A DNA stretch of 64,000 nt from an uncultured Chloroflexia bacterium (lineage in GTDB: Bacteria > Chloroflexota > Limnocylindria > Limnocylindrales > CSP1-4), in the NCBI GenBank assembly GCA_963746845.1, contig CAVVCZ010000001.1, positions 64,001-128,000 on the forward strand, in the 5' to 3' direction. A program made the translations under genes and the position numbers. Shown piece after piece: positions 1 through 55,668 of this stretch. Under the pieces are notes generated by a model, which searched no databases, had not been told where the DNA came from, and was given only the letters and a program-made list of their open reading frames with translations. Every line of letters begins with the position of its first letter. Positions within the stretch are counted from its first letter, which is position 1.

Positions 1-69
1 ATCGCCATCGGTGCGGGGCGCGCGCCAAGCGCGGTGCCCAACCGCGTGCGCGTCGAGCGAGGGGTCGGC

Positions 70-3000
70 GTGAGCTATCCGATCCAGCCCGGGAAGGTCC
101 AGGCACCCGCGCTCCGGGACGAGACCCTGGCCCGGACGCGCCTGCTCGACTGGCTCGAGATCAAGATCCACAGCCGCGTGATCTTCGTGATCGCCGACGC
201 CGGCTACGGCAAGACCACGCTCCTCGCGGACTTCTCCCGGCGGACGCGGCTGCGAACGATCTGGTATCGGCTCGACGAGGACGACCGCGACTGGGTCGGG
301 TTCCTGTCCCACCTCGTCGCTGCGGGTCGCGAGCACGATCCGGACTTCGCTCCGCGGACGGTTGCGACCCTTCGATCACTGGAGCCCGGCGGGCCGACCC
401 GCGACGACGCGATCGAGACGTTCCTCTCGGAGCTGCCGACGATCGCGCCCGAGGGCGCAGCGCTGATCTTCGACGACTTCCACATGGCGGACGAGGTCGG
501 CGACATCCGGCAGATCGCCCGCGAGATCGTCGCCCGGGCGCCGGACCGCTTGTCGATCGTGTTCGCCAGCCGCCGCCAGCCGCCGATCCCCGTGACGAAG
601 CTCCGGGCGCTCGGTGAACTGGCCGAGCTCGGGATCGCCGACCTCCGGTTCTCCGACAGCGAGCTCGAGCAGCTGTTCCGGGAGACCTACGGCAGGCCGC
701 TCGAACCCGACGTGCTCAGCGAGCTCGCCGCACGGACGGAGGGCTGGGCCGCGTCGCTCACCCTCGTCCAGGCGGCACTGCGCGAACGTTCGCCGTCCGA
801 AACGCGGTCGTTCGTGCGAGGTCTGTCGGGCGCTCGGGATGAGCTCCACGACTATCTCGCCGAGGAAGTCGTCGGCGACCTGCCGGAGATCCACCAGCAG
901 TTCCTGATGCGGACCTCGGTCCTCCAGGTCGTGACGCCCGAGCTGGCGCAGGTCGCGACCGGGTTGTCGGCAGTCGAGGTCCAGTCGCTCATGCTCGAGT
1001 CCGAGCGGTTGGGCCTCCTCGGCCGGCGGCCGAACCGGCGCTCGACGGCCCAGCGCTATCACCCGCTGGTGCGCGAGTTCCTCGAGGAGCGGCTCCGCCG
1101 CGAGATCGGCTCCGCCGGCGTCGACGAGCTCCACGTCGCGGTCGCCCGATGGGCCGAAGCTTCCGACTGGCGAACCGCCGCCCACCACTTCGCATCGGCC
1201 AGACGCTGGCCGGACCTCCAACGGGTACTGGACACCCACGTCGAAACGATCGTCGCCTCAGGCGCATTCGTTGCCGCTGCTGTTTACGTCGATCTGCTTG
1301 ACAAGTCCTCAGCCTCAGGATCCGTGGAGGTCGTCCGCTCTCGGGCGGCGAGTGTTACGGGCGACCTCGAAGTGATGCTTATCCATGCAGATCGTGCGGC
1401 CGAATTGGATCCGGGATCAGACGCGGTGACCATCAACTTGATCGCCTCGAACTACGTCGGTGGCGATATCAGACGGTCGGTCGAACTGGCTGAGCGCCTT
1501 TCAGTCGAGGGCAAGACCGCTCTCGCTCGTCAGCTTGGCGAAGGCACCCGCATGAATGTCTCCGGCTCCTTGGACGGAAACCTACAAGACATTGCCGACT
1601 ATCTGGAGCGACTTGCTGAGCGTAATCTCGCGGATGGACACCGCCATTACGAAGGCGTCAGTTTGCTGAACCTGTCCTTGACTTTGAAGGCTATGGGCGA
1701 AGTAGATCGCGCACGGGACGCGGCGTCTCAGTCCGTCGACGCGCTAGTAGCTAGTTCGTCAGGAATGGAACTAGCCTCGGCCAGATTTGCTTACGCGTGG
1801 GCGATCGCGTGGAAAGGCGATTTGGCTCAGGCTCGACAACTCTTCCTCGAGCAAGCACCCCTGCTCAAACATGCGATGCAGGCGGAGCTCCAACTCGAAA
1901 TTGCCGACCTTGAAACGGAGCTCGGCGACTCACAGGTCGCCGCCAGAGCCATGAGGTCTCTCGATTCAGAGGATCCGCCCCAATCAATCCAGGACATGGC
2001 CGCCTCTGCGAGGGCTCTCCTGCTGGTTCGCAATGGACAATCCCGCGACGCTCTTGCGCTGCTCGATTCGCTTCAGTCACCGACGCCAGCTCCGGAACCT
2101 GGCAGGCTCAGCCGTCTCAAGGCAATCCACGCCTATGCCGCCCTAATGGCAGGCCGGACTGATGCTGCGGACCTCGCTATGGACGCGGAACGGTTCGGGG
2201 AGCGCCAAGGCGCCGGCCGGCACCAACAGATGGCTTCCATCGTGCTTGCCGCCAGCGAGGAGCGACTTAGCGCTGAGATCGCTTCCATGCCTGCGAGCAG
2301 AGTCCCAGTTCTTTCCGTGATGACGGAGCTTCTTACCTCTCAGCTCCACCGTCTCGACAGTCATGCGCTGGATGTCTTGATCGAAGAAGCGTCGTTGCGG
2401 TCCGACAGATGGCTGCCAAGTCTGCGGGCTGCCACGGCCAATTCGTCAAACCCCGGCAGGCTTGCTGCCGCTCGTGTGTTGGATGTCGTGGGCGAGGCGG
2501 AGGACGTCGCACGGCTTCGACGGGTAGCCAAGGAGCCACGCCGCTCCACGAGGGATCGGACCCTGGGACGAGGCCTCGCACGGCGCCTAGCTTCCAAGGC
2601 ACTTGTCCTCGACCTAGGACGAGTCCGCGTTGTGCTTGGGGACAGGGAGGTCGCGGGCGGAGAGATCAGGAGAAAGGTTCTTGCACTCCTCTGCTTCCTG
2701 TTGGCCAAGCCGCGTATGACGGCTACCAGAGAGGAGGTCATGGAGGCCCTCTGGCCCGATGTCGACCCCAATGGCGCCATCAACTCCCTGAATCAAACCG
2801 TGTACTTTCTTCGGCGCGTCTTCGAACCTGAATACCAAGAAGACGTCTCGCCGAACTACGTACATCAAGAATCAGACTTGGTATTTCTCGACTCGGAGTT
2901 GGTTTACTCGTCCAGCGGCCGGTGCGCGACCCTCATCGCCTCAATCGATCGAAACCGAACCATTGAACTGGTCGATCAACTGAGCGAAACCTACGTTGGC

Positions 3001-3309
3001 CGATTTGCCGCTGACTTTGCCTACGAAGATTGGGCGGCCGACTATCGGGATTGGCTGCACGTCGGCTACTTGCACATTGTTGAGACTGAGATCGCCGATG
3101 AGATTGCACACGGGAGGTTTGAGCGAGGCGTGCGGCTGGCACGCCGCGCCCTAGAGGTCGACCCAAGGCTCGATACGCTTGGCCTGTCGCTCCTGCGTAT
3201 GTTGAAGGGGTCCGGCGCTCACTCGGCAGCCGCAGAGCAGTACGAGCGATATGCGTCGCTGCTTCGGTCCGAGATCGGCGTGGAACCACCGGCATTTGAC
3301 TCTGTCTAG
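70..3309 (+). CDS. MalT-like STAND ATPase / TPR / winged-helix-BTAD (SARP-type) transcriptional regulator
   Basis: ORF 34..3309; likely start GTG70 (VSYPIQPGKVQAP). Walker A ADAGYGKTT, WYRLDEDD, Walker B IFDDFH, TEGWAASL, RYHPLVREFL; helical TPR-like middle; C-terminal LGRVRV...LWPD...NSLNQTVYFLRR wHTH and BTAD-like end. Confidence 0.85.
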   Translation: MSYPIQPGKVQAPALRDETLARTRLLDWLEIKIHSRVIFVIADAGYGKTTLLADFSRRTRLRTIWYRLDEDDRDWVGFLSHLVAAGREHDPDFAPRTVATLRSLEPGGPTRDDAIETFLSELPTIAPEGAALIFDDFHMADEVGDIRQIAREIVARAPDRLSIVFASRRQPPIPVTKLRALGELAELGIADLRFSDSELEQLFRETYGRPLEPDVLSELAARTEGWAASLTLVQAALRERSPSETRSFVRGLSGARDELHDYLAEEVVGDLPEIHQQFLMRTSVLQVVTPELAQVATGLSAVEVQSLMLESERLGLLGRRPNRRSTAQRYHPLVREFLEERLRREIGSAGVDELHVAVARWAEASDWRTAAHHFASARRWPDLQRVLDTHVETIVASGAFVAAAVYVDLLDKSSASGSVEVVRSRAASVTGDLEVMLIHADRAAELDPGSDAVTINLIASNYVGGDIRRSVELAERLSVEGKTALARQLGEGTRMNVSGSLDGNLQDIADYLERLAERNLADGHRHYEGVSLLNLSLTLKAMGEVDRARDAASQSVDALVASSSGMELASARFAYAWAIAWKGDLAQARQLFLEQAPLLKHAMQAELQLEIADLETELGDSQVAARAMRSLDSEDPPQSIQDMAASARALLLVRNGQSRDALALLDSLQSPTPAPEPGRLSRLKAIHAYAALMAGRTDAADLAMDAERFGERQGAGRHQQMASIVLAASEERLSAEIASMPASRVPVLSVMTELLTSQLHRLDSHALDVLIEEASLRSDRWLPSLRAATANSSNPGRLAAARVLDVVGEAEDVARLRRVAKEPRRSTRDRTLGRGLARRLASKALVLDLGRVRVVLGDREVAGGEIRRKVLALLCFLLAKPRMTATREEVMEALWPDVDPNGAINSLNQTVYFLRRVFEPEYQEDVSPNYVHQESDLVFLDSELVYSSSGRCATLIASIDRNRTIELVDQLSETYVGRFAADFAYEDWAADYRDWLHVGYLHIVETEIADEIAHGRFERGVRLARRALEVDPRLDTLGLSLLRMLKGSGAHSAAAEQYERYASLLRSEIGVEPPAFDSV

Positions 3310-3343
3310 CCGCCTCACGCGTCCAGATAGGTACGTTGCCGTA

Positions 3344-3373
3344 TTGACCGGTTCGCTCCGGGCTCCCTATAGT
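3344..3373 (+). promoter_or_regulatory. sigma70-type promoter of the riboswitch/peptide operon
   Basis: TTGACC (3344-3349), 18 nt spacer, TATAGT (3368-3373). Confidence 0.75.
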
Positions 3374-3421
3374 CCGCCCCACTTCCCAGTACGGAGGTAC
3401 TAGGAAGAGCAGTTAAGACGC

Positions 3422-3491
3422 TCGGACGCGCCGACGCCTCACCTGAAATGGGCACTTAGGGTGAGGCTGAGCGAGTAGTGCAACCGACCGA
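3422..3491 (+). ncRNA. cyclic di-GMP-II riboswitch aptamer
   Basis: Hallmark UGGGCACUU (3449-3457) and GAG..AGUAGUGCAACCGACC (3469-3489). P1 TCGG 3422-25 / CCGA 3488-91; stem GCCTCACC/GGTGAGGC; pseudoknot GCACT 3452-56 with AGTGC 3477-81. Lies upstream of an HD-GYP gene. Confidence 0.88.
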
Positions 3492-3521
3492 CACGTGTGT
3501 CAGGTCGGTTTTCGTGTTCTT
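3482..3521 (+). terminator. riboswitch expression-platform terminator overlapping the aptamer 3' end
   Basis: AACCGACC-GACA(CGTG)TGTC-A-GGTCGGTT followed by U-rich TTCGTGTTCTT; mutually exclusive 12-bp stem 3506-3517 / 3533-3544. Confidence 0.65.
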
Positions 3522-3559
3522 GGGAGGGACAGACACGAAAACCGGAAGGAGGAACGAGC

Positions 3560-3592
3560 GTGGAGCCTCAGTCCGTAATCAAGAGCTGGTAG
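3560..3592 (+). CDS. 10-aa micro-ORF MEPQSVIKSW (uORF or peptide)
   Basis: Strong SD AAGGAGG 3546-3552, 7-nt spacer, GTG...TAG; immediately after the riboswitch. Confidence 0.45.
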   Translation: MEPQSVIKSW

Positions 3593-3608
3593 TCAGGAGT
3601 CGACATCG

Positions 3609-3698
3609 ATGAAGAATCGGCTGGTCCGGCTCTTTACTGCGGCAGGCGCTGTCGCAGCGATGGCAATCGCGGGGGGCGCGTCGCTCAAGGGCTTCTAG
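3609..3698 (+). CDS. 29-aa putative signalling peptide precursor MKNRLVRLFTAAGAVAAMAIAGGASLKGF
   Basis: SD AGGAG 3595-99, ATG3609, TAG 3696-98; basic N-terminus, hydrophobic helix, short GGA-SLKGF tail. Confidence 0.75.
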   Translation: MKNRLVRLFTAAGAVAAMAIAGGASLKGF

Positions 3699-3770
3699 TA
3701 CGTTTGGTCGTGTTCGAGTTTGGGCTCGGAGGGGTTAGAGTTTTCGAGACGACCACCGTATAGGGAACCA

Positions 3771-5206
3771 ATGTCTAGGTCCCTCAAGCTCTACATCGCA
3801 CTGCTCGCGGGTCTGAGCGTCTTGGCGCTTGCACTCGCGAGCTTTGTGTATGCGCAGGATCCGGCGCGGATCCTCGGCCTTCGGACCTCTATCGCGCTGC
3901 GCCTCGGCGGACCCGAGACCCCGGCCACTGAGGCTAATGTCCTTGCTGGGCTCGGCTTCTGGATCCTGATCACCCTCTTTGCGGGCGCACTGCCTGTCCG
4001 CATGCCTCGCGGGATGCTGGTGTCGGTCGCCATCGCCCCAATCGTCGCGGCAATGGCACTTGGGGGGCCTGTCGCCGCCGGATGGGTGGCCCTGATCGGA
4101 ACGATCGAGGGTCGCGAAGTCTCCGGGACAGATTCCTTGGTACGGGACCGTCGCCAATCACGCCGGCGTGCTCCTTCCCGCGATCGCCGGCAGCCTTGTC
4201 TGCGAGGCTGTGCTCTCGGTATCGACGACCGCGATCTGGTCGTTCGTCGCGACTGTGCTTGGCGCGGTCGTGCTGTTCGTCCTCAACTTTGCGATCGCCT
4301 CAGTGATGATTGCCCTCAAGTCTGGCCAGCCGCTGCGCATCGTCGTGGTCGGAGACGCTCGTGGCATTGTCGCTGAACGCACTCGCCCTCGCCCCACTCG
4401 CCTGGCTCATGGCGCAGATGTACGTCACCGCGTGGTGGGCTTCCCTGCTGTTCGCCCTTCCGCTCTACACGACCCGGGTCGCGTATCACCGGTTCGTCGA
4501 GATGCGCGACATGTTCACGCAGACCATCGGCGCCCTGGCCGAAGCCGTGGACAAGCGCGATCCGTACACCAGCAAGCACAGCCATCGGGTCAAGCAGATC
4601 GCCGTCGACATCGGGCGCGAGATGCGGGTCAACGCCCAGGAGCTCGAGGCGCTCGAGTGGGGCGGCCTGCTCCATGACGTCGGCAAGATCGGCGTGCCGG
4701 ACGCCGTCCTGCTGAAGTCGGACCGACTGACGCGGGACGAGCGGATGACGATGAACGCCCATCCGGTGCTCGGTGCCCAGATCATCGCGCCGGTCACGAA
4801 GCTCGCCCCGGAGCTCCCGATCATCCGCCACCACCACGAGTGGTTCAACGGCTCCGGCTACCCGGATCGCCTGATCGGTGACGAGATCCCGAAGCTTGCC
4901 CGGATCCTCCACGTGGCCGACGCCTTCGAGGCGATGACGGCCCAGCGGCCGTACCGGATGACGCCCCTGACGCCGGAGCAGGCGCTGGCCGAGCTCCGCA
5001 AGTTCGCCGGGATCCAGTTCGACCCATCCGTCGTCGACGCCTTCGTCCGGACGCCCTGGGTGCACGGGGTCTCCGACCCCGGCCGCCGCGAGGAGCCGCG
5101 CCAGATCCCGCTCATCGGGCAGGTCGCGGACCGGATGGCCCAGGCGAGCGGCCCGGCCCCGGCGAACACGGCTGCTCCCGTCACGGCCGGCGCCGACCAG
5201 GGCTGA
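3771..5206 (+). pseudogene. membrane-sensor HD-GYP c-di-GMP phosphodiesterase with two apparent +1 frameshifts (~4122, ~4369); real inactivation or sequence error
   Basis: TM helices continue over three frames (MSRSLKLYIALL.. -> GQIPWYGTVANHAG.. -> LNALALAPLAWLMA..). Intact HD-GYP domain: LLHDVGKIG, HHHEWFNGSGYP, DAFEAMT, RPYR. Confidence 0.85.
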
Positions 5207-5392: not shown

Positions 5393-7546
5393 ATGCTGAT
5401 CGTCGGCATCCTGTTCGGCCTCACGCTGGGCCTGCTCGGCGGGGGCTCGATCAACAACCTCGCGAACGTCCGGCTGCGCTGGGTCTGGGTGCTGCTCCTC
5501 GCGGTAATCCTCCGGTTCGGCACGGAGTACCTGCTGATCCGCGGGAACGAGATCGTCGAGGCCCTGCGACTGCCGCTCTTCGTCGCCGCCTTCGGGATGC
5601 TCCTCGCCGCACTCTGGGTCAACCGCTCGCAGCCGGGCCTCCGGATCGCGTTCGTCGGCATCCTCCTGAACACGATCGCGATCCTCGCGAACGGCGGATA
5701 CATGCCGATCTGGCTGCCCAGCCTGCTGGCCGCCGGGTTCCAGCCGTCGGACGTGACGCCGTTCCACGTCCTGCTCCCCGCCGGCCTGACACTCGACTTC
5801 TTCCGGCACGCCGGACCGATCGCCGACATCCTCCCGATCCCGCTGCCGCTGATCCAGAACGTGGCCTCGATCGGCGACGTCTTCCTCACGGCCGGCCTGG
5901 CCTTCTTCCTGTTCGCCACGGTCGTCCGCACCCAGGACGAGGAAGACGAAGCAGCCGAGGACCTGGGCGAGCGCCACATGGCCGGGCTGGCGGCGACCGC
6001 GCGGATGCCGCGCAGCCTCTCGAGCGCCATGGGCGGCCAGCGGATCCGCCCGGGCACGGGTCTGGCCCCGGGCCTCACCGAGACGGCCGCCCTGAACCGG
6101 CCACTCGTCTTCGGCACGCCGGCTCCCGGTCTCGCGGGCCCGAGCACCGACCGGGTCGAGCTGATCGGCCGGCCGGGAACCCTCAGCGCGGCCGCGATGG
6201 GTGGACGGGTGGTCGCGCTCGCCCCGGTCCCCGCGGCCGGCACGGTCCCGTTCGACGACGGGGTCGCGGCCCCGGCGCGTCCACGGGTCGAGGTCGGCGC
6301 GCGGGTCCGCCGGCACCCGTACGTCCGTCTCGCCCTCAACGGCTCGTTCTCGGCGCTGTGGACCGGACAGTTCATCAGCCTCTTCGGCGACCGGGTCCAT
6401 CAGATCGCGCTGACGTTCCTCGTGGCGGCGGTCACGGATTCGCCGCTCGCGGTGGCATTCGTCTTCGTCGCGGCCACGATCCCGAACCTGCTGCTCTCGC
6501 CGATCGCAGGCACCTATGTCGACCGGTGGAACCAGCGCGACGTGATGATCGTGAGCGATCTCCTGCGGGCCGCCCTCGTCTTGCTGATCCCGATCGCGGC
6601 TGCCGCGAACATCTACCTCGTCTACCCCTTCGTCTTCCTGCTCACCTCCATCTCGATCTTCTTCCGGCCGGCTCGGGTCGCGGTCCTCCCGCGGATCGTC
6701 CGGGGGGACGAGCTGCTGACCGCGAACTCGGCGATGTGGGCGGGCGAGACCTTCGCGGACGTCATCGGCTACCCGCTGGCGGGCATCTTCGTGGCGTTCC
6801 TCGGGCCTGCGCTACCGCTGGCGTTCTGGTTCGACGCCGCGACCTATGCGGCCTCGGCGATCCTCATCGCGACGATCGCCGTCCCCGCCGTCAAGCGGCG
6901 ACGCGCGGCGAGCGCCGACGGCGGCAGCCCCGAGGGCGGTGTCCTCGCCGAGATGCGCGAGGGCTTCCGGTTCCTCCGCCGCGAACCGGTCCTGCTCGCG
7001 AACACGATCCAGGCGACCTTCGCCCAGTTCGCGATCGGGTCGCTGACAGCCCTCACGCCGATCTTCGTGCGCGACGTCCTGGCGCCGACGAACGTCGACC
7101 CGAAGGCGGCCTACGCATTCCTGGAAACGGCGATCGGCGTCGGCAACCTGGTCGGTGGCTTCGTCATCGGCCTGATCGGGGTGCGGCTCGCGAAGGGCCG
7201 CAGCATCATCGCGGGCTACGTGATGTGGGGCATCACGATGATCCTGTTCGCGTTGAGCGGAAACCTGCTGGTCGACTTCGGGATCCTGTTCGGCGCGGGC
7301 GTCGCCAACATGGTGTTCGTGATCCCGAGCCAGGTCCTGTTCCAGGAGCGCACGCCGGCCGACATGATCGGGCGGGTCGTGGGCTTCCGATTCGCGCTCG
7401 TCTTCGGGTCGATGACGCTGGCGATGGCCCTCGGAGGCCTTGCCGCACAGGCGGTCGGGACGGTGCCGGTGCTCGTCGTGAGCGGCCTGATGTCGGTCGT
7501 TGCGGGACTCGCCGGCCTGCTGGTGCCGCCGCTGCGTGACGCCTGA
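5393..7546 (+). CDS. DUF5317-like membrane domain fused to an MFS transporter (DHA3/MefA-like)
   Basis: N-terminal ~180 aa with GILLNTIAILANGGYMP, IADILP, SIGDV; Pro/Ala linker; 12-TM MFS with LWTGQFISLFGD, GTYVDRWNQRDVMIVSDLLR, GRVVG. Confidence 0.8.
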   Translation: MLIVGILFGLTLGLLGGGSINNLANVRLRWVWVLLLAVILRFGTEYLLIRGNEIVEALRLPLFVAAFGMLLAALWVNRSQPGLRIAFVGILLNTIAILANGGYMPIWLPSLLAAGFQPSDVTPFHVLLPAGLTLDFFRHAGPIADILPIPLPLIQNVASIGDVFLTAGLAFFLFATVVRTQDEEDEAAEDLGERHMAGLAATARMPRSLSSAMGGQRIRPGTGLAPGLTETAALNRPLVFGTPAPGLAGPSTDRVELIGRPGTLSAAAMGGRVVALAPVPAAGTVPFDDGVAAPARPRVEVGARVRRHPYVRLALNGSFSALWTGQFISLFGDRVHQIALTFLVAAVTDSPLAVAFVFVAATIPNLLLSPIAGTYVDRWNQRDVMIVSDLLRAALVLLIPIAAAANIYLVYPFVFLLTSISIFFRPARVAVLPRIVRGDELLTANSAMWAGETFADVIGYPLAGIFVAFLGPALPLAFWFDAATYAASAILIATIAVPAVKRRRAASADGGSPEGGVLAEMREGFRFLRREPVLLANTIQATFAQFAIGSLTALTPIFVRDVLAPTNVDPKAAYAFLETAIGVGNLVGGFVIGLIGVRLAKGRSIIAGYVMWGITMILFALSGNLLVDFGILFGAGVANMVFVIPSQVLFQERTPADMIGRVVGFRFALVFGSMTLAMALGGLAAQAVGTVPVLVVSGLMSVVAGLAGLLVPPLRDA

Positions 7547-9455: not shown

Positions 9456-9604
9456 GGTGCCAGATCGACACCTGAGGTCGAGTAGGCGCGGTCAGCGGCG
9501 TGGATCGGGTCCCGACGAGCTGAGCTGAGCGTGGCGAGACGCTGACCCGCCCTCACAGACGGCGCTGAGCGTGCCGAGTCGACACCCGGCGTCGATCTGG
9601 CACC
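9456..9604. repeat. intergenic inverted repeat (REP/MITE-like)
   Basis: GGTGCCAGATCGAC 9456-9469 and exact reverse complement 9591-9604; a partial third copy near 9405. Confidence 0.5.
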
Positions 9605-9752
9605 GAAGCGGGGCGATCCTGGCCGTAGTCGTCACCAGGCGTCGAAATGGCAGGCTCGATGCGGCGTCGGGACGACCGGGGCGGCGAAGTGGGACCGGGG
9701 CGAGCCGGTGACGGCACGAGGCGCCGAGCACCCTCGGTATACTCGGCCGGCC

Positions 9753-10847
9753 ATGACCCACGTCTTCGTCGCGCCGCATCCCGATGACGTCGCGCTCTCC
9801 TGCGGGGGGCTGATCGCGAGCCTCCGGGAGCTGGGCCAGAACGTGACGATCGTGACCGTCTTCTCGGGAGCGGGGGCCGCGGCGGAGAACGGCGCCGGCC
9901 TGACGGGCTACCAGCGGGAGGCGCTCGGGTACGGGTCGAAGACGATGTGGCCCGTGACGGAGGCCTTCAACCGCGCGCACATTCGCGCGGACTTCCCCGT
10001 GTACGGCGACCCGGACGTGCTGCCGGCGTGGGCCGCGACCGACGACCGCCTCGAGGCGACCCAGAGCGACGCCGACGCGGCCGCCAAGCGGTTCTGGCAG
10101 CGTTCGTCGTGGTACCGCCGGGCGAGCATCCGGAGCCATCCGCTCGCCGGACAGCCGCTGATGGACGAGCTCAGCACGCAGGGCCCGGTCGCGACGGAGG
10201 ACCTGGTCGACGCCGCGGCCGGGGGCGACTCGATGGCCCAGCGTCGTCTCGAGGACGAGCACTTCGCTGCGTTCGCCGAGGCGTCGATCGTCTTCCTCGA
10301 TCTGCCCGACGCGGTCTTCCGCGGCTACGCGAACGACGACGAGCTGCTGAGCACCCCCCGCGACGATGATGCGACGCCGTTCGACGTCCTCCGCCGCGAG
10401 ATCACCCGGCTCGAGCCCCAGAAGCTGTACCTGCCGCTCGGCGTCGGCAACCACGTCGACCACCAACTCTGCCGCGACGTCGGCGTGCGATTGCTCGAAG
10501 AGGGCCGGCGCTGGGTGATGCCGGGCCCGGAGTACGCCGGCATCGTGACCTTCTACGAGGACTTCCCCTACGCGTGGTGGAACGACTTCACGAAGCTCGA
10601 GGATCTACCGGCCCACGCGCTGGCGCGCCTGCCGTCCGACGTCGGGCTGGCGCCCGAGTACGCCGACATCGCCGACCAGCTCGAGCGCAAGATCACGGGC
10701 GTCAACATCTACCAGAGCCAGATCGAGCGGCTGTTCACCTCGACGAAGGAGATGGCGCGACAGGTCCGCGCGAACGCCCGCAAGACGGCGCTCCTCGGCG
10801 GGTCCGCGGGCTCCGCCGAGCGCTACTGGACGACCCAGCCCGCGTAG
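9753..10847 (+). CDS. PIG-L/LmbE family deacetylase
   Basis: VAPHPDDVALSCGG, RRLED, PLGVGNHVDH, FYEDFPY, YQSQ. Confidence 0.85.
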   Translation: MTHVFVAPHPDDVALSCGGLIASLRELGQNVTIVTVFSGAGAAAENGAGLTGYQREALGYGSKTMWPVTEAFNRAHIRADFPVYGDPDVLPAWAATDDRLEATQSDADAAAKRFWQRSSWYRRASIRSHPLAGQPLMDELSTQGPVATEDLVDAAAGGDSMAQRRLEDEHFAAFAEASIVFLDLPDAVFRGYANDDELLSTPRDDDATPFDVLRREITRLEPQKLYLPLGVGNHVDHQLCRDVGVRLLEEGRRWVMPGPEYAGIVTFYEDFPYAWWNDFTKLEDLPAHALARLPSDVGLAPEYADIADQLERKITGVNIYQSQIERLFTSTKEMARQVRANARKTALLGGSAGSAERYWTTQPA

Positions 10848-27864: not shown

Positions 27865-30800
27865 CTACCGCGCCCGGGCGTTCGACTCCGCAGACAAGGG
27901 CCCCGTCCCGACGGCATTGACCGCGGCGACCTTGTAGTAGTAGCGCGTGCCCGCGGTCGTCGCGGTATCCGTGTAGGTCGTGACGACGCCGACCGCGACG
28001 AGGAACGTCTCGGTTCCGCTCGATGTGCTCCGGTAGATGCGATAGCCGCTGATCGCGGCGCCACCCGTCGACGTCGGGGCCAGCCAGGTCAGCCTGACGC
28101 CCTTTGTCGTGGCGGTGCTCGCGCTCAGGCTCCGCGGTGCCGTCGGGACCGTTGCCGGTCGAGCCGACACCTCGGTCGACCGTGGGCTCTCACCGACCGC
28201 GTTGACCGCGGTGACCTGGTAGTAGTACGTCGTCCCGTTGGTCAACCCGGCGTCCGCGAAGGTCGTCGTTCCGGCACCCAGCGTCGTCCGCAGCGTCTCG
28301 CCCCCGGAGGCGATGCCCCGGTAGACGCGATAGCCGGTGATCGGGCTGCCGCCGGTGCTGGCCGGGGCGACCCAGGTCAGCCCGACCTGGCCGTTGCCGG
28401 GGGTGGCGACAAGACCGGTCGGGGCACCGGGCGCGGTCGGTGGCGGGGGCGGCGCGACCGGGGTCGCGCTGGCGGGGGCCGACGCCGGACCCGGTCCGAC
28501 CGCGTTGGCGGCGACGACGGTGAACGTGTAGGGCGTGCCGCTGGTCAGGCCGGTGACCGTGCAGTTGAAGGTCGAGCCGCCGGCCGTGCAGGTCGCGCCG
28601 CCCGGGCTGGCGGTCGCGGTGTAGCCGGTGATCGGGCTGCCGCCGGTGCTGGCCGGGGCGACCCAGGTCAGCCCGACCTGGCCGTTGCCGGGGGTGGCGA
28701 CAAGACCGGTCGGGGCACCGGGCGCGGTCGGTGGCGGGGGCGGCGCGACCGGGGTCGCGCTGGCGGGGGCCGACGCCGGACCCGGTCCGACCGCGTTGGC
28801 GGCGACGACGGTGAACGTGTAGGGCGTGCCGCTGGTCAGGCCGGTGACCGTGCAGTTGAAGGTCGAGCCGCCGGCCGTGCAGGTCGCGCCGCCCGGGCTG
28901 GCGGTCGCGGTGTAGCCGGTGATCGGGCTGCCGCCGGTGCTGGCCGGGGCGACCCAGGTCAGCCCGACCTGGCCGTTGCCGGGGGTGGCGACAAGACCGG
29001 TCGGGGCACCGGGCGCGGTCGGTGGCGGGGGCGGCGCGACCGGGGTCGCGCTGGCGGGGGCCGACGCCGGACCCGGTCCGACCGCGTTGGCGGCGACGAC
29101 GGTGAACGTGTAGGGCGTGCCGTTGGTCAGGCCGGTGACCGTGCAGTTGAAGGTCGAGCCGCCGGCCGTGCAGGTCGCGCCGCCCGGGCTGGCGGTCGCG
29201 GTGTAGCCGGTGATCGGGCTGCCGCCGGTGCTGGCCGGGGCGACCCAGGTCAGCCCGACCTGGCCGTTGCCGGGGGTGGCGACAAGACCGGTCGGGGCAC
29301 CGGGCGCGGTCGGAGGCGGCGGCGGTGGGGGTGGCGTGGAGCCATCGCCGAGGAACAGGCCGGCGAGCACGGCGGTGTTGCCGGCGGTCTTGTCGGCGGT
29401 GATCGTGACGGTGCCGCCGGCGGCGACGTTGATCGGGGCGTGGATCCAGGCTCCCTGGACGTACGCGGTCCCGAGCTGGGCGGTCTGCGCTCCGTGGCCG
29501 TCGTTGATCGTGACGTTCTGGAAGCGGTTGCCGCCGTACGCGTCCCAGTCGAGGGCGTACAGGTGGAGGGTGCCGGTGTAGGCGTTGGCGAACGTCAGGT
29601 GGAGACGGAGCGAGCTCGTGTCGTACCAGGTCATCGACCGTCGCTCGGTCATCGTCGGGCTCTGGAGGGCCCGGACCTCGGTCGTCGTCGCGGCCCACAC
29701 GTAGCGGCCGCCCTGGTCGAGGCTGAAGGTCACCCCGGCCGGGAGGCTCGAGAGGTCGGCGTTGTTGCCGGTCCAGTTGGCGAGGACATAGCCGTCGTGG
29801 CCATACGTCCCGACCCAGTTGCCCTGGACCCCGGGGCTGTCGACGGGGAGTGGCGGCGGGGGCGGCGGCGGAAGGGCACCGGGACCGCCGAGCAGGAGGC
29901 CGGCCAGCACGGCATTGCTCGCCGTCCGGTCGACGGTGATGACGACCGAGCCGCCGGCTCCCACGGCAAACGGTGCATGGACCCAGGCCCCCTGGACATA
30001 CGAGCCAGCCGCGAGCGAAGCCGTCCGACGGCCGGCGCCGTCGTCGATGCTCACATCCTCCCCGCGCGGTCCGTAGGCGTCCCAGTCGAGGGCATACAGG
30101 TGGAGCGTGCCGGTGTAGGCAGCGGCGAAGGTCAGCCGGATCCGGATCTGGTTGGCGTCGTACCAGGTCAGCGACTTCCGGCCGTTGCCGCTCGGATCGC
30201 GTAGCGCTCGCACGTCGGTCGTCGAGGCCGCCCACGTGTATCGCGCACCCTGCTCGAGGCTGTAGGTCACCCCCGCAGGCAGGCTCACGAGGTCGTTGCT
30301 GCCGTTCCAGTTCGCGAAGACGTAGCCGTCCGCGCCGTAGGTGCCGAGCCAGTTGCCCTGGACCCCGGGCAGGTCGACCGTCGGCGCCGGCGGCGGAGGC
30401 GGCGGGGGAGGTGGCAACGGTCCCGCGCCGCCGAGGAACAGGCCGGCGAGCACGGCGGTGTTGCCGGCGGTCTTGTCGGCGGTGATCGTGACGGTGCCGC
30501 CGGCGGCGACGTTGATCGGGGCGTGGATCCAGGCTCCCTGGACGTACGCGGTCCCGAGCTGGGCGGTCTGCGCTCCGTGGCCGTCGTTGATCGTGACGTT
30601 CTGGAAGCGGTTGCCGCCGTACGCGTCCCAGTCGAGGGCGTACAGGTGGAGGGTGCCGGTGTAGGCGTTGGCGAACGTCAGGTGGAGACGGAGCGAGCTC
30701 GTGTCGTACCAGGTCATCGACCGTCGCTCGGTCATCGTCGGGCTCTGGAGGGCCCGGACCTCGGTCGTCGTCGCGGCCCACACGTAGCGGCCGCCCTGGT

Positions 30801-32547
30801 CGAGGCTGAAGGTCACCCCGGCCGGGAGGCTCGAGAGGTCGGCGTTGTTGCCGGTCCAGTTGGCGAGGACATAGCCGTCGTGGCCATACGTCCCGACCCA
30901 GTTGCCCTGGGCGTTCGCGGCCGTGCGGACACTGACGGTGTGGCTCCGGGTCTGCCCGGCGGTGTCCGTCGCGGTCGCCGTGAACGTGTAGGCGCCGCCG
31001 TCGACGCTGTTCGCATCCCATGGCATCGTCCAGCCGTTCGAGCCGTCCGTGTCGCTTGCGGCGAGCCGGCCGTTGACGAAGAAGTCCACCTTCGCGACGC
31101 CGACGTCGTCGGTGGCCGTCGCGGTCACGACGATCGGTCCGGAGACGGTGGCGCCGTCGAGGGGCGCGGTGATCTGGACGGTCGGCCGTCGGTCGCCCGG
31201 GTTCCCGCCGCTGACGGCGTTGAGCGCGTTGACGAGCGGCTCCGCGACGCCGTCCCGATCGTTGCCCCACTGCCCCTTGCCGACGCAGTCGCCGCTCCCG
31301 TTGGCGTCGGCGAACGCTCCGTTCGGACACTGCCCGGTCGACTTCAAGCGATCTCTCACGTCGGCGGGGGTCAGGTTGGGGAACGCTGCCAGCAGCAGCG
31401 CGGCGACGCCGGCCACGTGGGGCGAGGCCATGCTCGTGCCCATCTCGGTGGCGTAGCCGCCGCCGGTCCAGTCGGAGGTGATCTGGGTCCCGGGGGCCGT
31501 CACGTCGATCCGGGTCCCGAAGTTGCTGAACTCGGCGAGGGTGTCGTCGCAGTAGAAGAAGAACAGCCAGCAGCCGCCGAGCCCGCCGGGTTCGCCGTCG
31601 AGATCCGTGACCGCCGAAACGGCGATGACCTCGGGGAACGCCGCCGGGATGAACCCGGACACGTCCACGGTCGAGTTGCCCGCGGCCGCCACGTACGTGA
31701 CCCCGGCCGCGACCGACTTGCAGATCGCCTCGCGCACACCGCCGTCGGTGCACGTCCCGATCGTCCCGACGTCGCCGAGGCTCATGTTCGCGACGCGGAT
31801 GTCGTTCGTCGGGTCGTTGTCGGTCGCATACGCGGTCAGGGTGTCGATCGCGCAGATGAGGTTCGACCATTCGCCCGAGCCGCTGTCGTCGAGCACCTTG
31901 AACGGGACGAGGCGGGCGTGCGGCGCGACGCCGACGACCCCGAGGCCGTTGTCGGCCGCGGCGATGATGCCGGCGACATGGGTCCCGTGGCCGTGGCCGT
32001 CCTGGGGCGGACCCGCGGTCATGCAGTTCTTGCCGAGCCCCACGTCGAGGTTCGGGACCAGGTCCGGGTGGGTCAGGTCGATGCCGGTGTCGAGGATCGC
32101 GACGCGCACGCCTTGGCCGGTGAACCCGGCGTCGTAGGCGCTCGGCGGGGTCGAGTGGTTCGCGGCGATGCGCGAGATCCCCGTCGGGATGGTGTCGTCG
32201 AGCGCGTGGATCGTGCCGTCGGCCACGACCGAGCGGACGTTGGGGTTGCGCGCCAGCGCTGCGGCGGCCTTCGCCGAACCCTTGAAGACGAACCCGTGGA
32301 GCGCGTGACGGAAGACGAACCCGGCCTTGCCGCCCTCACCCTGCGCGAGCGTGCCCGCCAGTCGGTCGGTGTCCGCCCGGGGCTGCATCGAGACGATCCA
32401 GCTCGTCGCCGTCGCCACGCCCGGGCCGACGGGGACCGGAGCCGGTCTCGCGGGCGGGGCGGCCGAAACCGTATTCGGGACTGTCAGGAGCAGGACGGAT
32501 CCGAACAGGATCGCCGTTCGGAAGCGCCACCCTCGCGCTCCGCTCAT
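27865..32547 (-). CDS. secreted S8 subtilase with I9 propeptide, Ig-like domain, three unknown beta-rich repeats and five FN3 domains
   Basis: Signal peptide; catalytic DTGID, HGTHVAG, AAGN, GTSMASPHVAG; QGNW.GTYG.DGY x3; PGAPTGL..W.AP FN3 repeats. Confidence 0.92.
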   Translation of the reverse strand: MSGARGWRFRTAILFGSVLLLTVPNTVSAAPPARPAPVPVGPGVATATSWIVSMQPRADTDRLAGTLAQGEGGKAGFVFRHALHGFVFKGSAKAAAALARNPNVRSVVADGTIHALDDTIPTGISRIAANHSTPPSAYDAGFTGQGVRVAILDTGIDLTHPDLVPNLDVGLGKNCMTAGPPQDGHGHGTHVAGIIAAADNGLGVVGVAPHARLVPFKVLDDSGSGEWSNLICAIDTLTAYATDNDPTNDIRVANMSLGDVGTIGTCTDGGVREAICKSVAAGVTYVAAAGNSTVDVSGFIPAAFPEVIAVSAVTDLDGEPGGLGGCWLFFFYCDDTLAEFSNFGTRIDVTAPGTQITSDWTGGGYATEMGTSMASPHVAGVAALLLAAFPNLTPADVRDRLKSTGQCPNGAFADANGSGDCVGKGQWGNDRDGVAEPLVNALNAVSGGNPGDRRPTVQITAPLDGATVSGPIVVTATATDDVGVAKVDFFVNGRLAASDTDGSNGWTMPWDANSVDGGAYTFTATATDTAGQTRSHTVSVRTAANAQGNWVGTYGHDGYVLANWTGNNADLSSLPAGVTFSLDQGGRYVWAATTTEVRALQSPTMTERRSMTWYDTSSLRLHLTFANAYTGTLHLYALDWDAYGGNRFQNVTINDGHGAQTAQLGTAYVQGAWIHAPINVAAGGTVTITADKTAGNTAVLAGLFLGGAGPLPPPPPPPPPAPTVDLPGVQGNWLGTYGADGYVFANWNGSNDLVSLPAGVTYSLEQGARYTWAASTTDVRALRDPSGNGRKSLTWYDANQIRIRLTFAAAYTGTLHLYALDWDAYGPRGEDVSIDDGAGRRTASLAAGSYVQGAWVHAPFAVGAGGSVVITVDRTASNAVLAGLLLGGPGALPPPPPPPLPVDSPGVQGNWVGTYGHDGYVLANWTGNNADLSSLPAGVTFSLDQGGRYVWAATTTEVRALQSPTMTERRSMTWYDTSSLRLHLTFANAYTGTLHLYALDWDAYGGNRFQNVTINDGHGAQTAQLGTAYVQGAWIHAPINVAAGGTVTITADKTAGNTAVLAGLFLGDGSTPPPPPPPPTAPGAPTGLVATPGNGQVGLTWVAPASTGGSPITGYTATASPGGATCTAGGSTFNCTVTGLTNGTPYTFTVVAANAVGPGPASAPASATPVAPPPPPTAPGAPTGLVATPGNGQVGLTWVAPASTGGSPITGYTATASPGGATCTAGGSTFNCTVTGLTSGTPYTFTVVAANAVGPGPASAPASATPVAPPPPPTAPGAPTGLVATPGNGQVGLTWVAPASTGGSPITGYTATASPGGATCTAGGSTFNCTVTGLTSGTPYTFTVVAANAVGPGPASAPASATPVAPPPPPTAPGAPTGLVATPGNGQVGLTWVAPASTGGSPITGYRVYRGIASGGETLRTTLGAGTTTFADAGLTNGTTYYYQVTAVNAVGESPRSTEVSARPATVPTAPRSLSASTATTKGVRLTWLAPTSTGGAAISGYRIYRSTSSGTETFLVAVGVVTTYTDTATTAGTRYYYKVAAVNAVGTGPLSAESNARAR
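28331..29312. repeat. 291-bp near-identical tandem repeat (~3.4 copies) encoding FN3 domains
   Basis: Period 291 (28337, 28628, 28919, 29210); only one difference seen (Asn/Ser codon). Confidence 0.9.
29346..30910. repeat. 482-bp direct repeat (29346-29827 = 30429-30910) flanking a diverged third copy
   Basis: Offset 1083; appears identical by eye; encodes domain copies 1 and 3. Confidence 0.85.
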
Positions 32548-32705
32548 CGCATCCCCACCCCTGGCGATTCGATCCGCCGCGATCGAAGGTCGTGAGTGTC
32601 CGTCGCGCTCGAATCGGCGTCAATGAGGGAACTGCCGTATTCCGATCGAACGGTGCGGCGATGCGCCGGCCAGTTGCGGGCCTCGGCCGGTTCGGCCCGC
32701 CCGTC

Positions 32706-55662: not shown

Positions 55663-55668
55663 CGTCCA

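What the first reader, a model, noticed from the sequence alone, without database searches (positions are those of the whole stretch)
1200..4450. Lower-GC patch crossing gene boundaries: possible swappable specificity (pherotype) cassette
Seen: the regulator's ATPase part and the HD-GYP catalytic part use GC-rich codons (line 481: 44/60 GC). From ~1200 to ~4450 codons often end in A/T (line 1561: 33/60; line 2821: 27/60). The patch covers the TPR/BTAD region, riboswitch, peptides and receptor TM domain. Known: agr specificity groups vary in a block spanning peptide and sensor, with breakpoints inside genes. Inference: recombination exchanges signal and receptor together.
Basis: partly seen in the sequence, partly recalled or inferred. 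Interest (0 to 1): 0.78.

Follow-up and report, generated by a model that had tools for sequence, protein, structure and literature searches.

The report
Lower-GC variable sensor block, c-di-GMP locus
A 3.2-kb stretch with AT-richer codons runs from the middle of a regulator gene to the middle of a c-di-GMP-degrading enzyme gene; the same dip occurs at this locus in related Chloroflexota genomes and marks a fast-changing, recombining sensor block rather than a recent foreign insert.

Summary
Window 1148-4350 is the one long stretch that does not fit the genome's high-GC3 coding pattern. GC is 0.612 there, against at least 0.668 in any other window of equal length. GC3 falls from 0.92 to 0.66 inside the regulator ORF at nt ~1149 and climbs back to 0.94 by ~4400 inside the HD-GYP gene.

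It is not a recent import. In 24 of 24 intact orthologous loci from Limnocylindria MAGs the same block has lower GC3 than its flanks (mean 0.71 against 0.89). The block is the regulator's sensor and DNA-binding part, the intergenic region and the MASE9 membrane domain. The dip does not depend on amino-acid conservation.

The regulator is mosaic: its ATPase part and its middle and C-terminal parts give conflicting, well-supported trees.

Inside the block lie a conserved promoter, a c-di-GMP-II riboswitch with terminator, and two conserved micro-ORFs that share a C-terminal K/R-G-aromatic motif.

The pherotype reading is only partly supported. The regulator's variable part and the membrane domain do not co-vary. 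The peptide ends are mostly conserved. Membrane-domain alleles form a continuum rather than a few groups. Peptide to membrane-domain co-variation is weak.

The HD-GYP gene carries two single-base frame breaks of unknown origin.

The parts
34..3309 (+). Regulator gene, 1091 aa, intact. It has an N-terminal P-loop ATPase (Walker A GYGKTT), a variable TPR-like middle part, and a C-terminal OmpR-type winged helix plus BTAD (a SARP-type output).
   Evidence: ORF. Pfam: BTAD 43.3 bits (cutoff 22.1), Trans_reg_C 24.7 (cutoff 26.2), AAA_16 23.7 (cutoff 32.6). 920 homologues, many carrying source names of MalT/SARP type and precomputed TPR families.
34..1146 (+). High-GC3 flank: the ATPase module of the regulator, GC3 0.92.
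   Evidence: Mean identity to 52 homologues is 0.74-0.92 in every 60-aa window that begins before residue 332.
1148..4350 (.). The lower-GC block (GC 0.612). It holds regulator residues ~372-1091 (GC3 0.64-0.67), the intergenic control region (GC 0.59) and the membrane (MASE9) part of the HD-GYP gene (GC3 0.76-0.82).
   Evidence: HMM segmentation; change points at 1149 and ~4399; window statistics.
3344..3373 (+). Sigma-70-like promoter, TTGACC-18-TATAGT. It is conserved in relatives, and a conserved element (GATAGGTA...CGTA) sits just upstream of the first hexamer.
   Evidence: Scan: 10 of 12 matches, 1 site found against 0.1 expected; conservation in the alignment of 58 intergenic regions.
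3382..3407 (+). Leader hairpin, CTTCCCAGTAC-GGAG-GTACTAGGAAG. The palindromic TAGTAC core is conserved in relatives.
   Evidence: MFE fold; alignment.
3416..3498 (+). c-di-GMP-II riboswitch aptamer.
   Evidence: Rfam RF01786, 65.5 bits, gathering score 53.5, full model 1-84. Aptamer plus terminator are 81% identical on average over 44 sequences, and the helix that the Rfam match pairs (3439-3446 with 3463-3470) differs on both strands between sequences (read by eye, pairs not counted).
3484..3512 (+). Intrinsic-terminator-like hairpin (CCGACCGAC...GTCAGGTCGG) followed by TTTT. Its 5' arm overlaps the 3' strand of the aptamer's closing helix.
   Evidence: MFE fold; Rfam alignment of the closing helix; conserved in 44 sequences. 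The simple terminator scan did not report it, so it rests on the fold and on conservation.
3560..3592 (+). sORF1, 10 codons (MEPQSVIKSW), GTG start 7 nt after AGGAGGA. The family consensus is M-x-P-E-x-x-x-K-G-W/F/Y.
   Evidence: Found in 45 of 58 intergenic regions; sequences.
3609..3698 (+). sORF2, 29 codons (MKNRLVRLFTAAGAVAAMAIAGGASLKGF). It has a basic N-terminus, a hydrophobic stretch, and a conserved A-x-A-GGASL[KR]GF end, so it looks like a signal peptide or a single-pass membrane peptide.
   Evidence: Found in 50 of 58. Coding signature: entropy per codon position 1.02/0.63/1.67 bits, with invariant residues over fully variable third positions.
3771..5206 (+). MASE9-HD-GYP c-di-GMP phosphodiesterase gene, read in three frames (3771-4127, 4129-~4360, 4361-5206). 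Each of the two breaks equals one extra base, at ~4120-4128 (TCCGGGACAG) and at ~4357-4363 (ATTGTCG). The HD and GYP motifs are present.
   Evidence: Frame plot; alignment to intact orthologues; HD_5 136.4 bits; MASE9 above cutoff on orthologues P0172 and L022, no match on the window's fragments; HHEWFNGSGYP and LLHDVGK visible in the translation.
5393..7546 (+). DUF5317-MFS fusion gene. It is the syntenic right-hand neighbour, GC3 0.94, and is used as flank.
   Evidence: Pfam; synteny in the loci; GC3.

Best explanation
The patch is this genome's copy of a standing variable sensor block in a locus that is conserved across Limnocylindria (Chloroflexota). The locus order is: STAND-type ATPase regulator with a SARP output, then promoter, c-di-GMP-II riboswitch, terminator and two micro-ORFs, then a MASE9-HD-GYP phosphodiesterase, then DUF5317-MFS.

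Shown here:
- The block runs from regulator residue ~372 to about residue 200 of the HD-GYP protein.
- Its synonymous sites sit at GC3 of about 0.7, against about 0.89 in the flanks, in every intact relative examined.
- This holds whatever the conservation of the encoded residue, so it is a regional property and not a codon-bias effect.
- The protein-coding parts of the block are the fast-evolving sensor domains.
- The left edge is a recombination junction.

Inferred cause: the conserved flanks keep recombining homologously between lineages and are driven GC-ward by GC-biased gene conversion. The divergent sensor-coding DNA rarely recombines, except by replacement of whole segments anchored in the conserved ATPase module, the conserved intergenic region or the catalytic domain. 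It therefore drifts toward the AT-biased mutational equilibrium.

Inferred function: binding of c-di-GMP stabilises the aptamer's closing helix, which competes with the terminator. High c-di-GMP would then switch on the two micro-ORFs and the phosphodiesterase, giving negative feedback.
For: - Patch boundaries and statistics.
- The dip is family-wide. Block GC3 is below flank GC3 in 24 of 24 intact loci (0.714 against 0.886; difference 0.006-0.234), and block GC3 is uncorrelated with flank GC3 (r = -0.18).
- In 33 of 34 full-length regulators the first 370 codons have higher GC3 than the rest, and 26 of 34 show a change point with log-likelihood ratio of at least 10.
- The averaged profile shows the same trough.
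- Regional, not site-level: GC3 is 0.87-0.90 in flank columns and 0.70-0.78 in block columns in every conservation bin.
- GC3 of the three block parts correlates across loci (r 0.46-0.60) but not with the flanks.
- Mosaic regulator. By the ATPase part the window sits in a 12-row clade (support 99). By the middle part it sits in a different 12-row clade (95), and that clade is recovered again from the C-terminal part (98).
- AU tests agree: the middle-part data reject the ATPase clade (delta lnL 156), the ATPase data reject the middle-part clade (delta lnL 238, p 0.0025), and the C-terminal data reject the ATPase clade (p 6e-7).
- The crossover lies at about nt 1240-1280, within ~130 nt of the GC3 step.
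- 12 of the 16 contigs that end inside the regulator end at residues 319-458 (binomial 6e-7). This is as expected if co-occurring variants share the ATPase module and then diverge.
- HD-GYP: catalytic identity 0.90-0.97 but membrane part 0.44-0.66 in 90 homologues. Among 54 pairs with at least 99% catalytic identity, membrane identity ranges from 0.47 to 0.99.
- Riboswitch and terminator overlap.
Against: - The link to GC-biased gene conversion is inference; no recombination rates were measured.
- At the depth of the 24 loci, every segment rejects every other segment's tree, flanks included (30 of 30 tests, p-AU at most 0.008). The flanks therefore do not behave as one clean backbone, and model misfit may contribute.
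- One locus (L022) has no dip (0.84 against 0.83) and L051 has a small one.
- The conserved intergenic region (81% nucleotide identity) lies inside the low-GC block. Low recombination because of divergence cannot hold for that part.
- The clades tested by AU were named after the trees were seen, except for the C-terminal confirmation.
- A nearly invariant catalytic domain carries little phylogenetic signal, so pairs at 99% or more need not be recent relatives.
- No closer donor of the window's middle part exists in the protein collection (best 61%), so no recent exchange is documented.
Confidence: 0.45

Rival explanations
1. Pherotype-type specificity cassette. The micro-ORF peptides are signals. 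The MASE9 domain, the regulator's TPR-like part, or both are their receptors. Signal and receptor diversify and are exchanged together by recombination in the conserved flanks, as in agr.
For: - The variable block is bounded by conserved catalytic modules, with intragenic edges.
- There is recombination at the left edge.
- sORF2 is under peptide-level selection and looks exported.
- The C-termini of sORF1 and sORF2 vary in step in some lineages: KPY/KPY, KGY/KGY, and KGF/KGF in 5 loci.
- Similarity of the peptide ends tracks membrane-domain identity after controlling for the flanks: partial r 0.44, 0 of 2000 permutations, 17 taxa.
Against: - The co-variation falls to partial r 0.23 (p about 0.046) with 27 taxa, and sORF1 alone shows none. 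Simple physical linkage would also produce it.
- There is no co-variation of the peptides or the membrane domain with the regulator's variable part.
- The presumed mature end, AGGASL[KR]GF, is nearly invariant across loci whose sensor domains are only 20-60% identical.
- There are 55 membrane-domain clusters at 80% identity among 90 homologues, a continuum and not a few groups.
- No agr-type genes are present.
- The idea does not by itself explain the lower GC3.
Confidence: 0.15
2. Repeated import: the block is drawn again and again from an allele pool kept in lower-GC lineages or on mobile DNA, so it never reaches the host's composition.
For: - Block GC3 is uncorrelated with flank GC3, and its parts share a GC3 level within each locus.
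- The window has the sharpest contrast (0.92 against 0.64-0.67) and an abrupt left edge.
- The regulator has mosaic ancestry.
Against: - No lower-GC donor was found: locus GC of all 34 full-length relatives is 0.66-0.71.
- The best match to the window's middle part is 61%.
- There is no tRNA and there are no flanking repeats, and no mobile-element family appeared among the Pfam matches of the 43 window ORFs scanned.
- The regulator's middle part and the membrane domain do not share histories.
Confidence: 0.2
3. Weak constraint: sensor domains evolve fast and use fewer GC-ending optimal codons, so the dip merely mirrors low protein conservation.
For: The block coincides with the least conserved protein segments.
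Against: - GC3 is flat across conservation bins in both compartments: flank 0.87-0.90, block 0.70-0.78.
- The conserved winged-helix segment keeps low GC3, and poorly conserved MFS segments keep GC3 of 0.87.
Confidence: 0.05
4. Artefact or decay in this genome only: a chimeric assembly joining two strains, or a dying locus. The two frame breaks would be the sign of it.
For: - There are two single-base frame breaks within ~240 nt, the second near the right edge of the patch.
- Many of the relatives' records named MFD (long contigs) show several frame changes in these genes.
- Short-read assemblies break at the left edge.
Against: - The same dip is present in 24 of 24 intact loci from many independent assemblies.
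- The regulator stays an intact 1091-codon ORF through 2.1 kb of the patch.
- The parts after each break remain open, conserved and of orthologue length.
- Other genes of the window give full-length domain matches in one frame.
Confidence: 0.05

Closest known systems
agr hypervariable region of staphylococci (parts of agrB, agrD and agrC)
   Same: It is a variable block that starts inside one gene, spans a small peptide gene and ends inside the membrane sensor part of the next gene. Conserved catalytic parts lie on both sides (PMC10482373, passages).
   Different: There are no agr homologues. The output is a c-di-GMP phosphodiesterase and a STAND/SARP regulator, not a histidine kinase. The peptide ends are mostly conserved. 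Alleles form a continuum rather than four groups. The parts of the block do not share one history. The block also holds a conserved riboswitch.
MASE9-HD-GYP phosphodiesterases (for example TM1467 and HdgA of Streptomyces venezuelae, as named in bioRxiv 10.1101/2021.11.05.467447)
   Same: The domain order is the same: an integral-membrane MASE9 domain followed by HD-GYP. Orthologues score above the Pfam cutoff for MASE9. The paper proposes ligand binding within the membrane (passages).
   Different: Here the gene follows a c-di-GMP-II riboswitch and two conserved micro-ORFs, and its MASE9 part is hypervariable with lower GC3. The word riboswitch occurs 0 times in that paper's main text.
c-di-GMP-II riboswitches (Rfam RF01786)
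   Same: There is a full-length match above the gathering score, followed by a terminator-like hairpin as expression platform.
   Different: The context differs: it sits upstream of micro-ORFs and a c-di-GMP-degrading enzyme in Chloroflexota. A search for 'c-di-GMP-II riboswitch' together with 'HD-GYP' found 5 papers. The 4 that were listed have neither term in title or abstract, and none was opened.
MalT/LAL-type STAND regulators and SARP regulators such as AfsR (recalled from general knowledge)
   Same: It has a P-loop ATPase, a TPR-like sensor part and a DNA-binding output. Source names for the homologues say MalT and SARP.
   Different: The SARP output (winged helix plus BTAD) is at the C-terminus after the ATPase and sensor parts, whereas MalT carries a LuxR-type HTH there. 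In AfsR, as I recall it, the SARP part is N-terminal.

Membership tests
agr-type pherotype cassette | Variable block with edges inside the flanking genes | tested here: met
   Identity and GC3 steps at regulator residue ~370-400 and HD-GYP residue ~200-210.
agr-type pherotype cassette | A few discrete allelic specificity groups | tested here: not met
   55 clusters at 80% and 18 at 70% membrane-domain identity among 90 homologues.
agr-type pherotype cassette | The signal peptide varies and co-varies with its receptor | tested here: inconclusive
   Peptide ends are mostly AGGASL[KR]GF and K-G-W/F/Y. Partial r with the membrane domain is 0.44 (17 taxa) but 0.23 (27 taxa); there is none with the regulator.
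agr-type pherotype cassette | Whole block inherited or exchanged as one unit | tested here: not met
   All segments reject each other's trees. Partial correlation is 0.07 between the regulator's middle part and the membrane domain, and -0.14 between its C-terminal part and the membrane domain.
agr-type pherotype cassette | AgrB/AgrD/AgrC/AgrA homologues | tested here: not met
   No such Pfam families in the locus or in the rest of the window.
agr-type pherotype cassette | Cognate activation and cross-group inhibition | not testable with these tools
   Needs peptide and receptor assays.
c-di-GMP-II riboswitch (RF01786) | Covariance-model score above Rfam's gathering score over the full model | tested here: met
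   65.5 bits against 53.5, model positions 1-84 of 84.
c-di-GMP-II riboswitch (RF01786) | Binds c-di-GMP and controls the downstream genes | not testable with these tools
   Only the overlap of the closing helix with the terminator arm is seen.
HD-GYP phosphodiesterase | HD_5/HD profile match with the HD and GYP motifs | tested here: met
   HD_5 136.4 bits; LLHDVGK and NGSGYP in the translation.
HD-GYP phosphodiesterase | One intact reading frame | tested here: not met
   Two +1 frame changes in the membrane part. Whether they are in the cell or only in the assembly is unknown.
MASE9 membrane sensor domain | Pfam PF20972 above its cutoff | tested here: inconclusive
   Orthologues P0172 (36.1 bits) and L022 (32.3) pass the cutoff of 24.3. 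P0135, L009 and the window's two fragments give no match.
STAND ATPase with SARP output | P-loop ATPase plus winged helix plus BTAD | tested here: met
   BTAD is above its cutoff; AAA_16 and Trans_reg_C are just below theirs. Walker A GYGKTT is invariant in 48 sequences.
Genomic island or mobile insertion | Insertion with flanking repeats, a tRNA or mobility genes | tested here: not met
   No tRNA; only short chance-level repeats; the block consists of in-frame parts of syntenic genes.

The most novel reading that the evidence does not exclude
The locus is an undescribed peptide-signalling module wired into c-di-GMP turnover. At high c-di-GMP the riboswitch lets through two micro-ORFs that carry the same C-terminal motif. 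One has an export or membrane segment (sORF2) and one does not (sORF1). sORF2's product would act on the hypervariable MASE9 domain of the co-transcribed phosphodiesterase from within or outside the membrane. sORF1's product would act on the regulator's TPR-like sensor. Peptide and MASE9 would co-diversify, which would make the block a specificity cassette whose persistent AT-richer codons are the footprint of long-lived, non-recombining alleles.
Probability: 0.15. Interest if true: 0.85.

Novelty: new variant of a known kind. Interest (0 to 1): 0.55.

Why it matters
If the explanation holds, a within-gene step in synonymous GC content marks a long-lived boundary between a freely recombining backbone and a divergent sensor block, across a whole bacterial class. 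That is a cheap, sequence-only way to find such blocks in uncultured organisms. It also offers a natural test case for GC-biased gene conversion in bacteria.

The locus itself gives a testable circuit in the poorly known Limnocylindria: a c-di-GMP-II riboswitch in front of a c-di-GMP-degrading enzyme. It also contains two conserved micro-ORFs whose shared C-terminal motif suggests an unstudied peptide or small-membrane-protein partner for MASE9. No ligand is named for MASE9 in the passages I read.

Tried and rejected
- **Recent foreign insert.** Rejected because the dip is present in 24 of 24 intact relatives and there is no tRNA and no flanking repeats.
- **Codon bias following protein conservation.** Rejected by the conservation-bin control.
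- **Search for a closer allele of the regulator's middle part.** The best match is 61%, with only 12 hits, so no donor was found.
- **Six-segment all-against-all AU tests on 25 taxa.** Every tree was rejected by every other segment's data. This gave no evidence for a co-inherited block and may partly reflect model misfit at this depth.
- **Pairing regulators with HD-GYP homologues by equal contig length.** This gave only about 9 pairs and none for the clade that shares the window's middle part. Whether the membrane domain moved with that part could therefore not be tested.
- **Search with sORF2.** The tool needs at least 40 residues, so the peptide's wider distribution is unknown.
- **Rfam on 7 divergent loci.** Only 2 reach the gathering score, so the riboswitch is not shown for the whole family.
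- **Custom covariance model.** Planned and then dropped; the exact 12-mer count (44 of 58) and the alignment were used instead.
- **The simple terminator scan** did not report the hairpin at 3484-3512.
- **Frame errors elsewhere in the window.** These could not be excluded formally. Only full-length Pfam matches in single frames argue against them.
- **Not used.** No structure prediction, complex prediction, atlas search or representative-library search was run. Both micro-ORFs are below the 30-residue minimum of these tools, so the peptide questions could not be put to them.

Full report
**1. The observation**

The window has 70.5% GC. The kb bins 1001-4000 have 60.9-62.2%, and no other bin is below 65.5%. 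Codon-position analysis of the intact 1091-codon regulator ORF (34-3309) shows GC3 of about 0.9 up to nt ~1150 and 0.60-0.67 afterwards. The change point is at nt 1149, with a 2-log-likelihood interval of 1134-1194 and a log-likelihood ratio of 51.

An HMM with states for the six coding frames and one non-coding state marks 1148-4350 as the one long stretch (3203 nt) that does not fit the high-GC3 pattern. That block has GC 0.612, and no equal-sized window outside it is below 0.668. The right edge is gradual. GC3 is 0.76, 0.82, 0.88 and then 0.94, with a change point near 4399 (interval 4314-4588).

**2. What lies there**

- **Regulator.** It has a P-loop ATPase part, a middle part that carries TPR families in the precomputed annotation of homologues, and a winged helix plus BTAD at the C-terminus.
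- **Control region, in order.**
  - A promoter-like site, TTGACC-18-TATAGT, at 3344-3373.
  - A leader hairpin at 3382-3407.
  - A c-di-GMP-II riboswitch at 3416-3498 (65.5 bits).
  - A terminator-like hairpin with a T-run at 3484-3512. Its 5' arm overlaps the 3' strand of the aptamer's closing helix.
- **Two small ORFs with Shine-Dalgarno sites.** sORF1 is at 3560-3592 (MEPQSVIKSW). sORF2 is at 3609-3698 (29 aa) and has a basic start, a hydrophobic stretch and the end AIAGGASLKGF.
- **HD-GYP gene.** It starts at 3771. Its catalytic part is clear (HD_5 136 bits; HD and GYP motifs visible). Its membrane part matches Pfam MASE9 in two intact orthologues out of the four intact relatives scanned. 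MASE9-HD-GYP is a described architecture (bioRxiv 10.1101/2021.11.05.467447, passages).
- **Frame breaks.** In the window this gene changes frame twice. Alignment to intact orthologues shows that each break equals one extra base, at TCCGGGACAG (~4120-4128) and at ATTGTCG (~4357-4363). Orthologue length and conservation are preserved after each break. Whether these are real mutations or consensus errors cannot be told without reads. Other genes of the window give full-length domain matches in one frame. Many of the relatives' records named MFD (long contigs) carry several frame changes in the same genes.
- **Right-hand neighbour.** A DUF5317-MFS fusion follows at 5393-7546.

**3. Relatives**

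The regulator has 920 homologues in the protein collection. The few that carry a source's organism name are called Chloroflexi/Chloroflexota or Limnocylindrales, with one 'Patescibacteria group'. A scan of species-representative genomes returned 80 loci, nearly all titled as Limnocylindria or other Chloroflexota MAGs; one is titled Candidatus Sulfotelmatobacter. The order regulator, ~450-nt spacer, membrane HD-GYP, DUF5317-MFS is the same throughout.

The spacer is strikingly conserved. Aptamer plus terminator average 81% nucleotide identity over 44 sequences, and the helix that the Rfam match pairs (3439-3446 with 3463-3470) differs on both strands between sequences; this was read by eye and the pairs were not counted. 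An exact 12-base core is present in 44 of 58 spacers, the window included. Of 7 divergent loci lacking it, 2 reach Rfam's gathering score.

sORF1 was found in 45 of 58 spacers, sORF2 in 50 and both in 41. sORF2 shows a clear coding signature: entropy of 1.02, 0.63 and 1.67 bits at codon positions 1, 2 and 3, with invariant A-G-G-A-S-L over freely varying third positions. The two ORFs end alike, with K/R-G-aromatic. In some lineages they change together: KPY/KPY, KGY/KGY, and KGF/KGF in five loci. Sometimes the DNA is nearly identical (17 of 18 bases in L046) and sometimes the codons differ.

**4. The dip is family-wide and regional**

- In 33 of 34 full-length regulators the first 370 codons have higher GC3 than the rest. 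In 26 of 34 the change point has a log-likelihood ratio of at least 10, and it falls between codons 235 and 543.
- 24 loci have all three genes intact, and in all 24 block GC3 is below flank GC3. The block here is the regulator after residue 440 plus the first 200 HD-GYP residues; the flank is the ATPase part plus the catalytic part plus MFS. The means are 0.714 and 0.886 and the difference ranges from 0.006 to 0.234. L022 is the one locus without a dip. Block GC3 is uncorrelated with flank GC3 (r = -0.18).
- GC3 of the three block parts correlates across loci (0.46-0.60; 0.28-0.50 without L022). It does not correlate with the flanks, which correlate among themselves.
- The decisive control: GC3 is 0.87-0.90 in flank columns and 0.70-0.78 in block columns in every bin of residue conservation. 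In the window alone it is 0.62-0.74 against 0.88-0.95.

The dip is therefore not a by-product of weak protein constraint and not a recent import into this genome.

**5. Recombination**

Among 114 full-length regulators, pairs with at least 95% identity in the ATPase part range from 37% to 94% in the middle part. Some pairs at 60-70% in the ATPase part reach 67% in the middle part.

Trees of 58 proteins conflict:
- By the ATPase part, the window, P0002 and P0003 join P0011, P0021, P0022, P0027, P0028, P0030, P0035, P0048 and P0053 (support 99).
- By the middle part they join P0004-P0010, P0012 and P0013 (support 95).
- The C-terminal part recovers that second clade independently (support 98).

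AU tests reject each clade on the other part's data: delta lnL 156; delta lnL 238 with p 0.0025; and p 6e-7 for the C-terminal data against the ATPase clade. The clades were named after the trees were seen, except for the C-terminal confirmation. The switch in the window's affinities lies at about nt 1240-1280, roughly 100-130 nt beyond the GC3 step.

An independent sign comes from contig ends. Of the 16 contigs that end inside the regulator, 12 end at residues 319-458. The binomial probability is 6e-7, allowing only positions after the search motif. This is what assemblers do when co-occurring variants share one part and diverge in the next.

**6. Is it one cassette?**

- For the window plus 24 loci, six segments were compared: the ATPase, middle and C-terminal parts of the regulator, the membrane domain, the catalytic domain and MFS. 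Each segment's data reject all five other trees (30 of 30 tests, p-AU at most 0.008). The three block segments therefore show no special agreement.
- Identity matrices of five of the segments correlate at 0.73-0.93. The membrane domain correlates with all of them at only 0.46-0.56. Its partial correlation is 0.07 with the regulator's middle part and -0.14 with the C-terminal part.
- Of the 120 best HD-GYP homologues, 30 shorter than 450 aa were dropped. In the remaining 90 the catalytic part is 90-97% identical to the window's and the membrane part 44-66%.
- Catalytic and membrane identities are almost uncorrelated (Spearman 0.15). Among 54 pairs with at least 99% catalytic identity, membrane identity runs from 0.47 to 0.99 (22 pairs at 0.4-0.6, 23 at 0.8 or more).
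- The membrane domains fall into 55 clusters at 80% identity and 18 at 70%. That is a continuum of alleles.
This suggests that the documented exchange involved the regulator segment only. The margin is small, and no membrane domain from the other clade was available.
- Similarity of the peptide ends tracks membrane-domain identity after controlling for the flanks: partial r 0.44 with 0 of 2000 permutations in 17 taxa, but 0.23 with p about 0.046 in 27 taxa. It does not track the regulator parts. Adjacency alone could produce this.
- A search restricted to the window's middle part found nothing closer than 61%.

**7. Explanation**

Shown: a standing, regional drop of synonymous GC over the sensor half of the locus in a whole class of bacteria, edges that coincide with steps in identity, and mosaic ancestry at the left edge.

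Inferred: the flanks recombine homologously and are pushed GC-ward. A link between recombination and GC content in bacteria is reported in PMC4450053 (abstract read). The divergent sensor-coding DNA seldom recombines except by segment replacement, and so sits nearer the AT-biased mutational equilibrium.

A pool of alleles imported from lower-GC sources is the main rival. No such source was seen: locus GC of the 34 full-length relatives is 0.66-0.71. The two ideas are not exclusive. The conserved spacer inside the block does not fit the divergence argument and remains unexplained.

The switch logic is read from the overlap of the closing helix with the terminator arm. On that reading, c-di-GMP favours read-through into the micro-ORFs and the phosphodiesterase, which gives negative feedback. 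It is untested.

**8. Comparison and novelty**

The layout resembles the agr hypervariable region (PMC10482373, passages), but the locus is not an agr system. It also fails two of that model's features: discrete groups and inheritance as one unit. Each component is of a known kind (the riboswitch, MASE9-HD-GYP, and a STAND regulator with SARP output).

Searches of the paper library:
- 'Limnocylindria' together with 'c-di-GMP': 0 papers.
- 'MASE9': 2 papers.
- 'c-di-GMP-II riboswitch' together with 'HD-GYP': 5 papers. The 4 that were listed have neither term in title or abstract, and none was opened.

These three searches are not a search for the locus as such. No term for the micro-ORFs or for the GC dip was tried, and the library lacks most subscription journals. 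I rate the finding as a new variant of a known kind.

**9. Left open**

- Reads of this assembly.
- The wider distribution of the micro-ORF peptides (too short for the search tools).
- The supplementary figures of the MASE9 preprint were not seen.

Noticed in passing
window 3560-3592 and 3609-3698; loci L001-L078 spacers: The two conserved micro-ORFs downstream of the riboswitch end in the same K/R-G-aromatic motif. The ends change together in some lineages (KPY/KPY in L046, KGY/KGY in L053). In L046 the last 18 bases are 17/18 identical between the two ORFs, which suggests gene conversion or a shared RNA-level or peptide-level constraint.
   Followed up: partly
L069 spacer (sORF1 position): sORF1 is expanded to 28 codons by a triplicated unit (…DQNTRPW LPDQNTRPW LPDQNTRPW), so the C-terminal motif is repeated three times.
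   Followed up: no
window 3397-3402 (- strand), 3696-3701, and the near-match TAGGTAC just after the regulator's stop codon: The rare hexamer TAGTAC occurs 5 times in the window against 1.08 expected. Two of the five copies lie in this spacer: one in the leader hairpin (its partner arm in the window reads CAGTAC) and one at the stop codon of sORF2. The sORF2 end (CTTCTAGTAC) nearly repeats the hairpin's 5' arm, so it could pair with the 3' arm or be a protein site.
   Followed up: partly
window 3415-3431 and 3807-3823: A 17-nt inverted repeat (88% complementary) lies between the 5' end of the riboswitch and the start of the HD-GYP coding region. It may be chance.
   Followed up: no
L045 10379-12000: The regulator match is interrupted by about 1.6 kb between residues ~790 and ~786 of the query. 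This may be an insertion inside the gene.
   Followed up: no
loci L007, L010, L012, L015, L024, L025, L026, L028, L048, L066, L077, L080: These contigs, most with megahit- or SPAdes-style names, stop inside the regulator at residues 319-458, at the conserved-to-variable junction. This hints that several variants of the block co-occur in the sampled communities.
   Followed up: partly
window 54921-56326: This is the second-longest stretch that does not fit the high-GC3 coding pattern (1406 nt; kb bins at GC 0.655-0.660). It lies just upstream of a Tad/Flp-pilus-like gene set at 56243-62076 (RcpC/CpaB, receiver-ParA-like ATPase, T2SSE ATPase, two T2SSF proteins).
   Followed up: no
window 12900-47650: A large cell-envelope glycosylation region holds eight GT87-family ORFs, several GT2/GT4 transferases, two sugar epimerase/dehydratases and a UDP-glucose/GDP-mannose dehydrogenase.
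   Followed up: no
window 27865-32619 (- strand): A 1585-aa subtilase (Peptidase_S8) carries a bacterial Ig domain and five fibronectin type III repeats.
   Followed up: no
window 9546-10847: The PIG-L deacetylase domain matches only profile positions 1-42 of 129. The protein is either divergent or disrupted.
   Followed up: no
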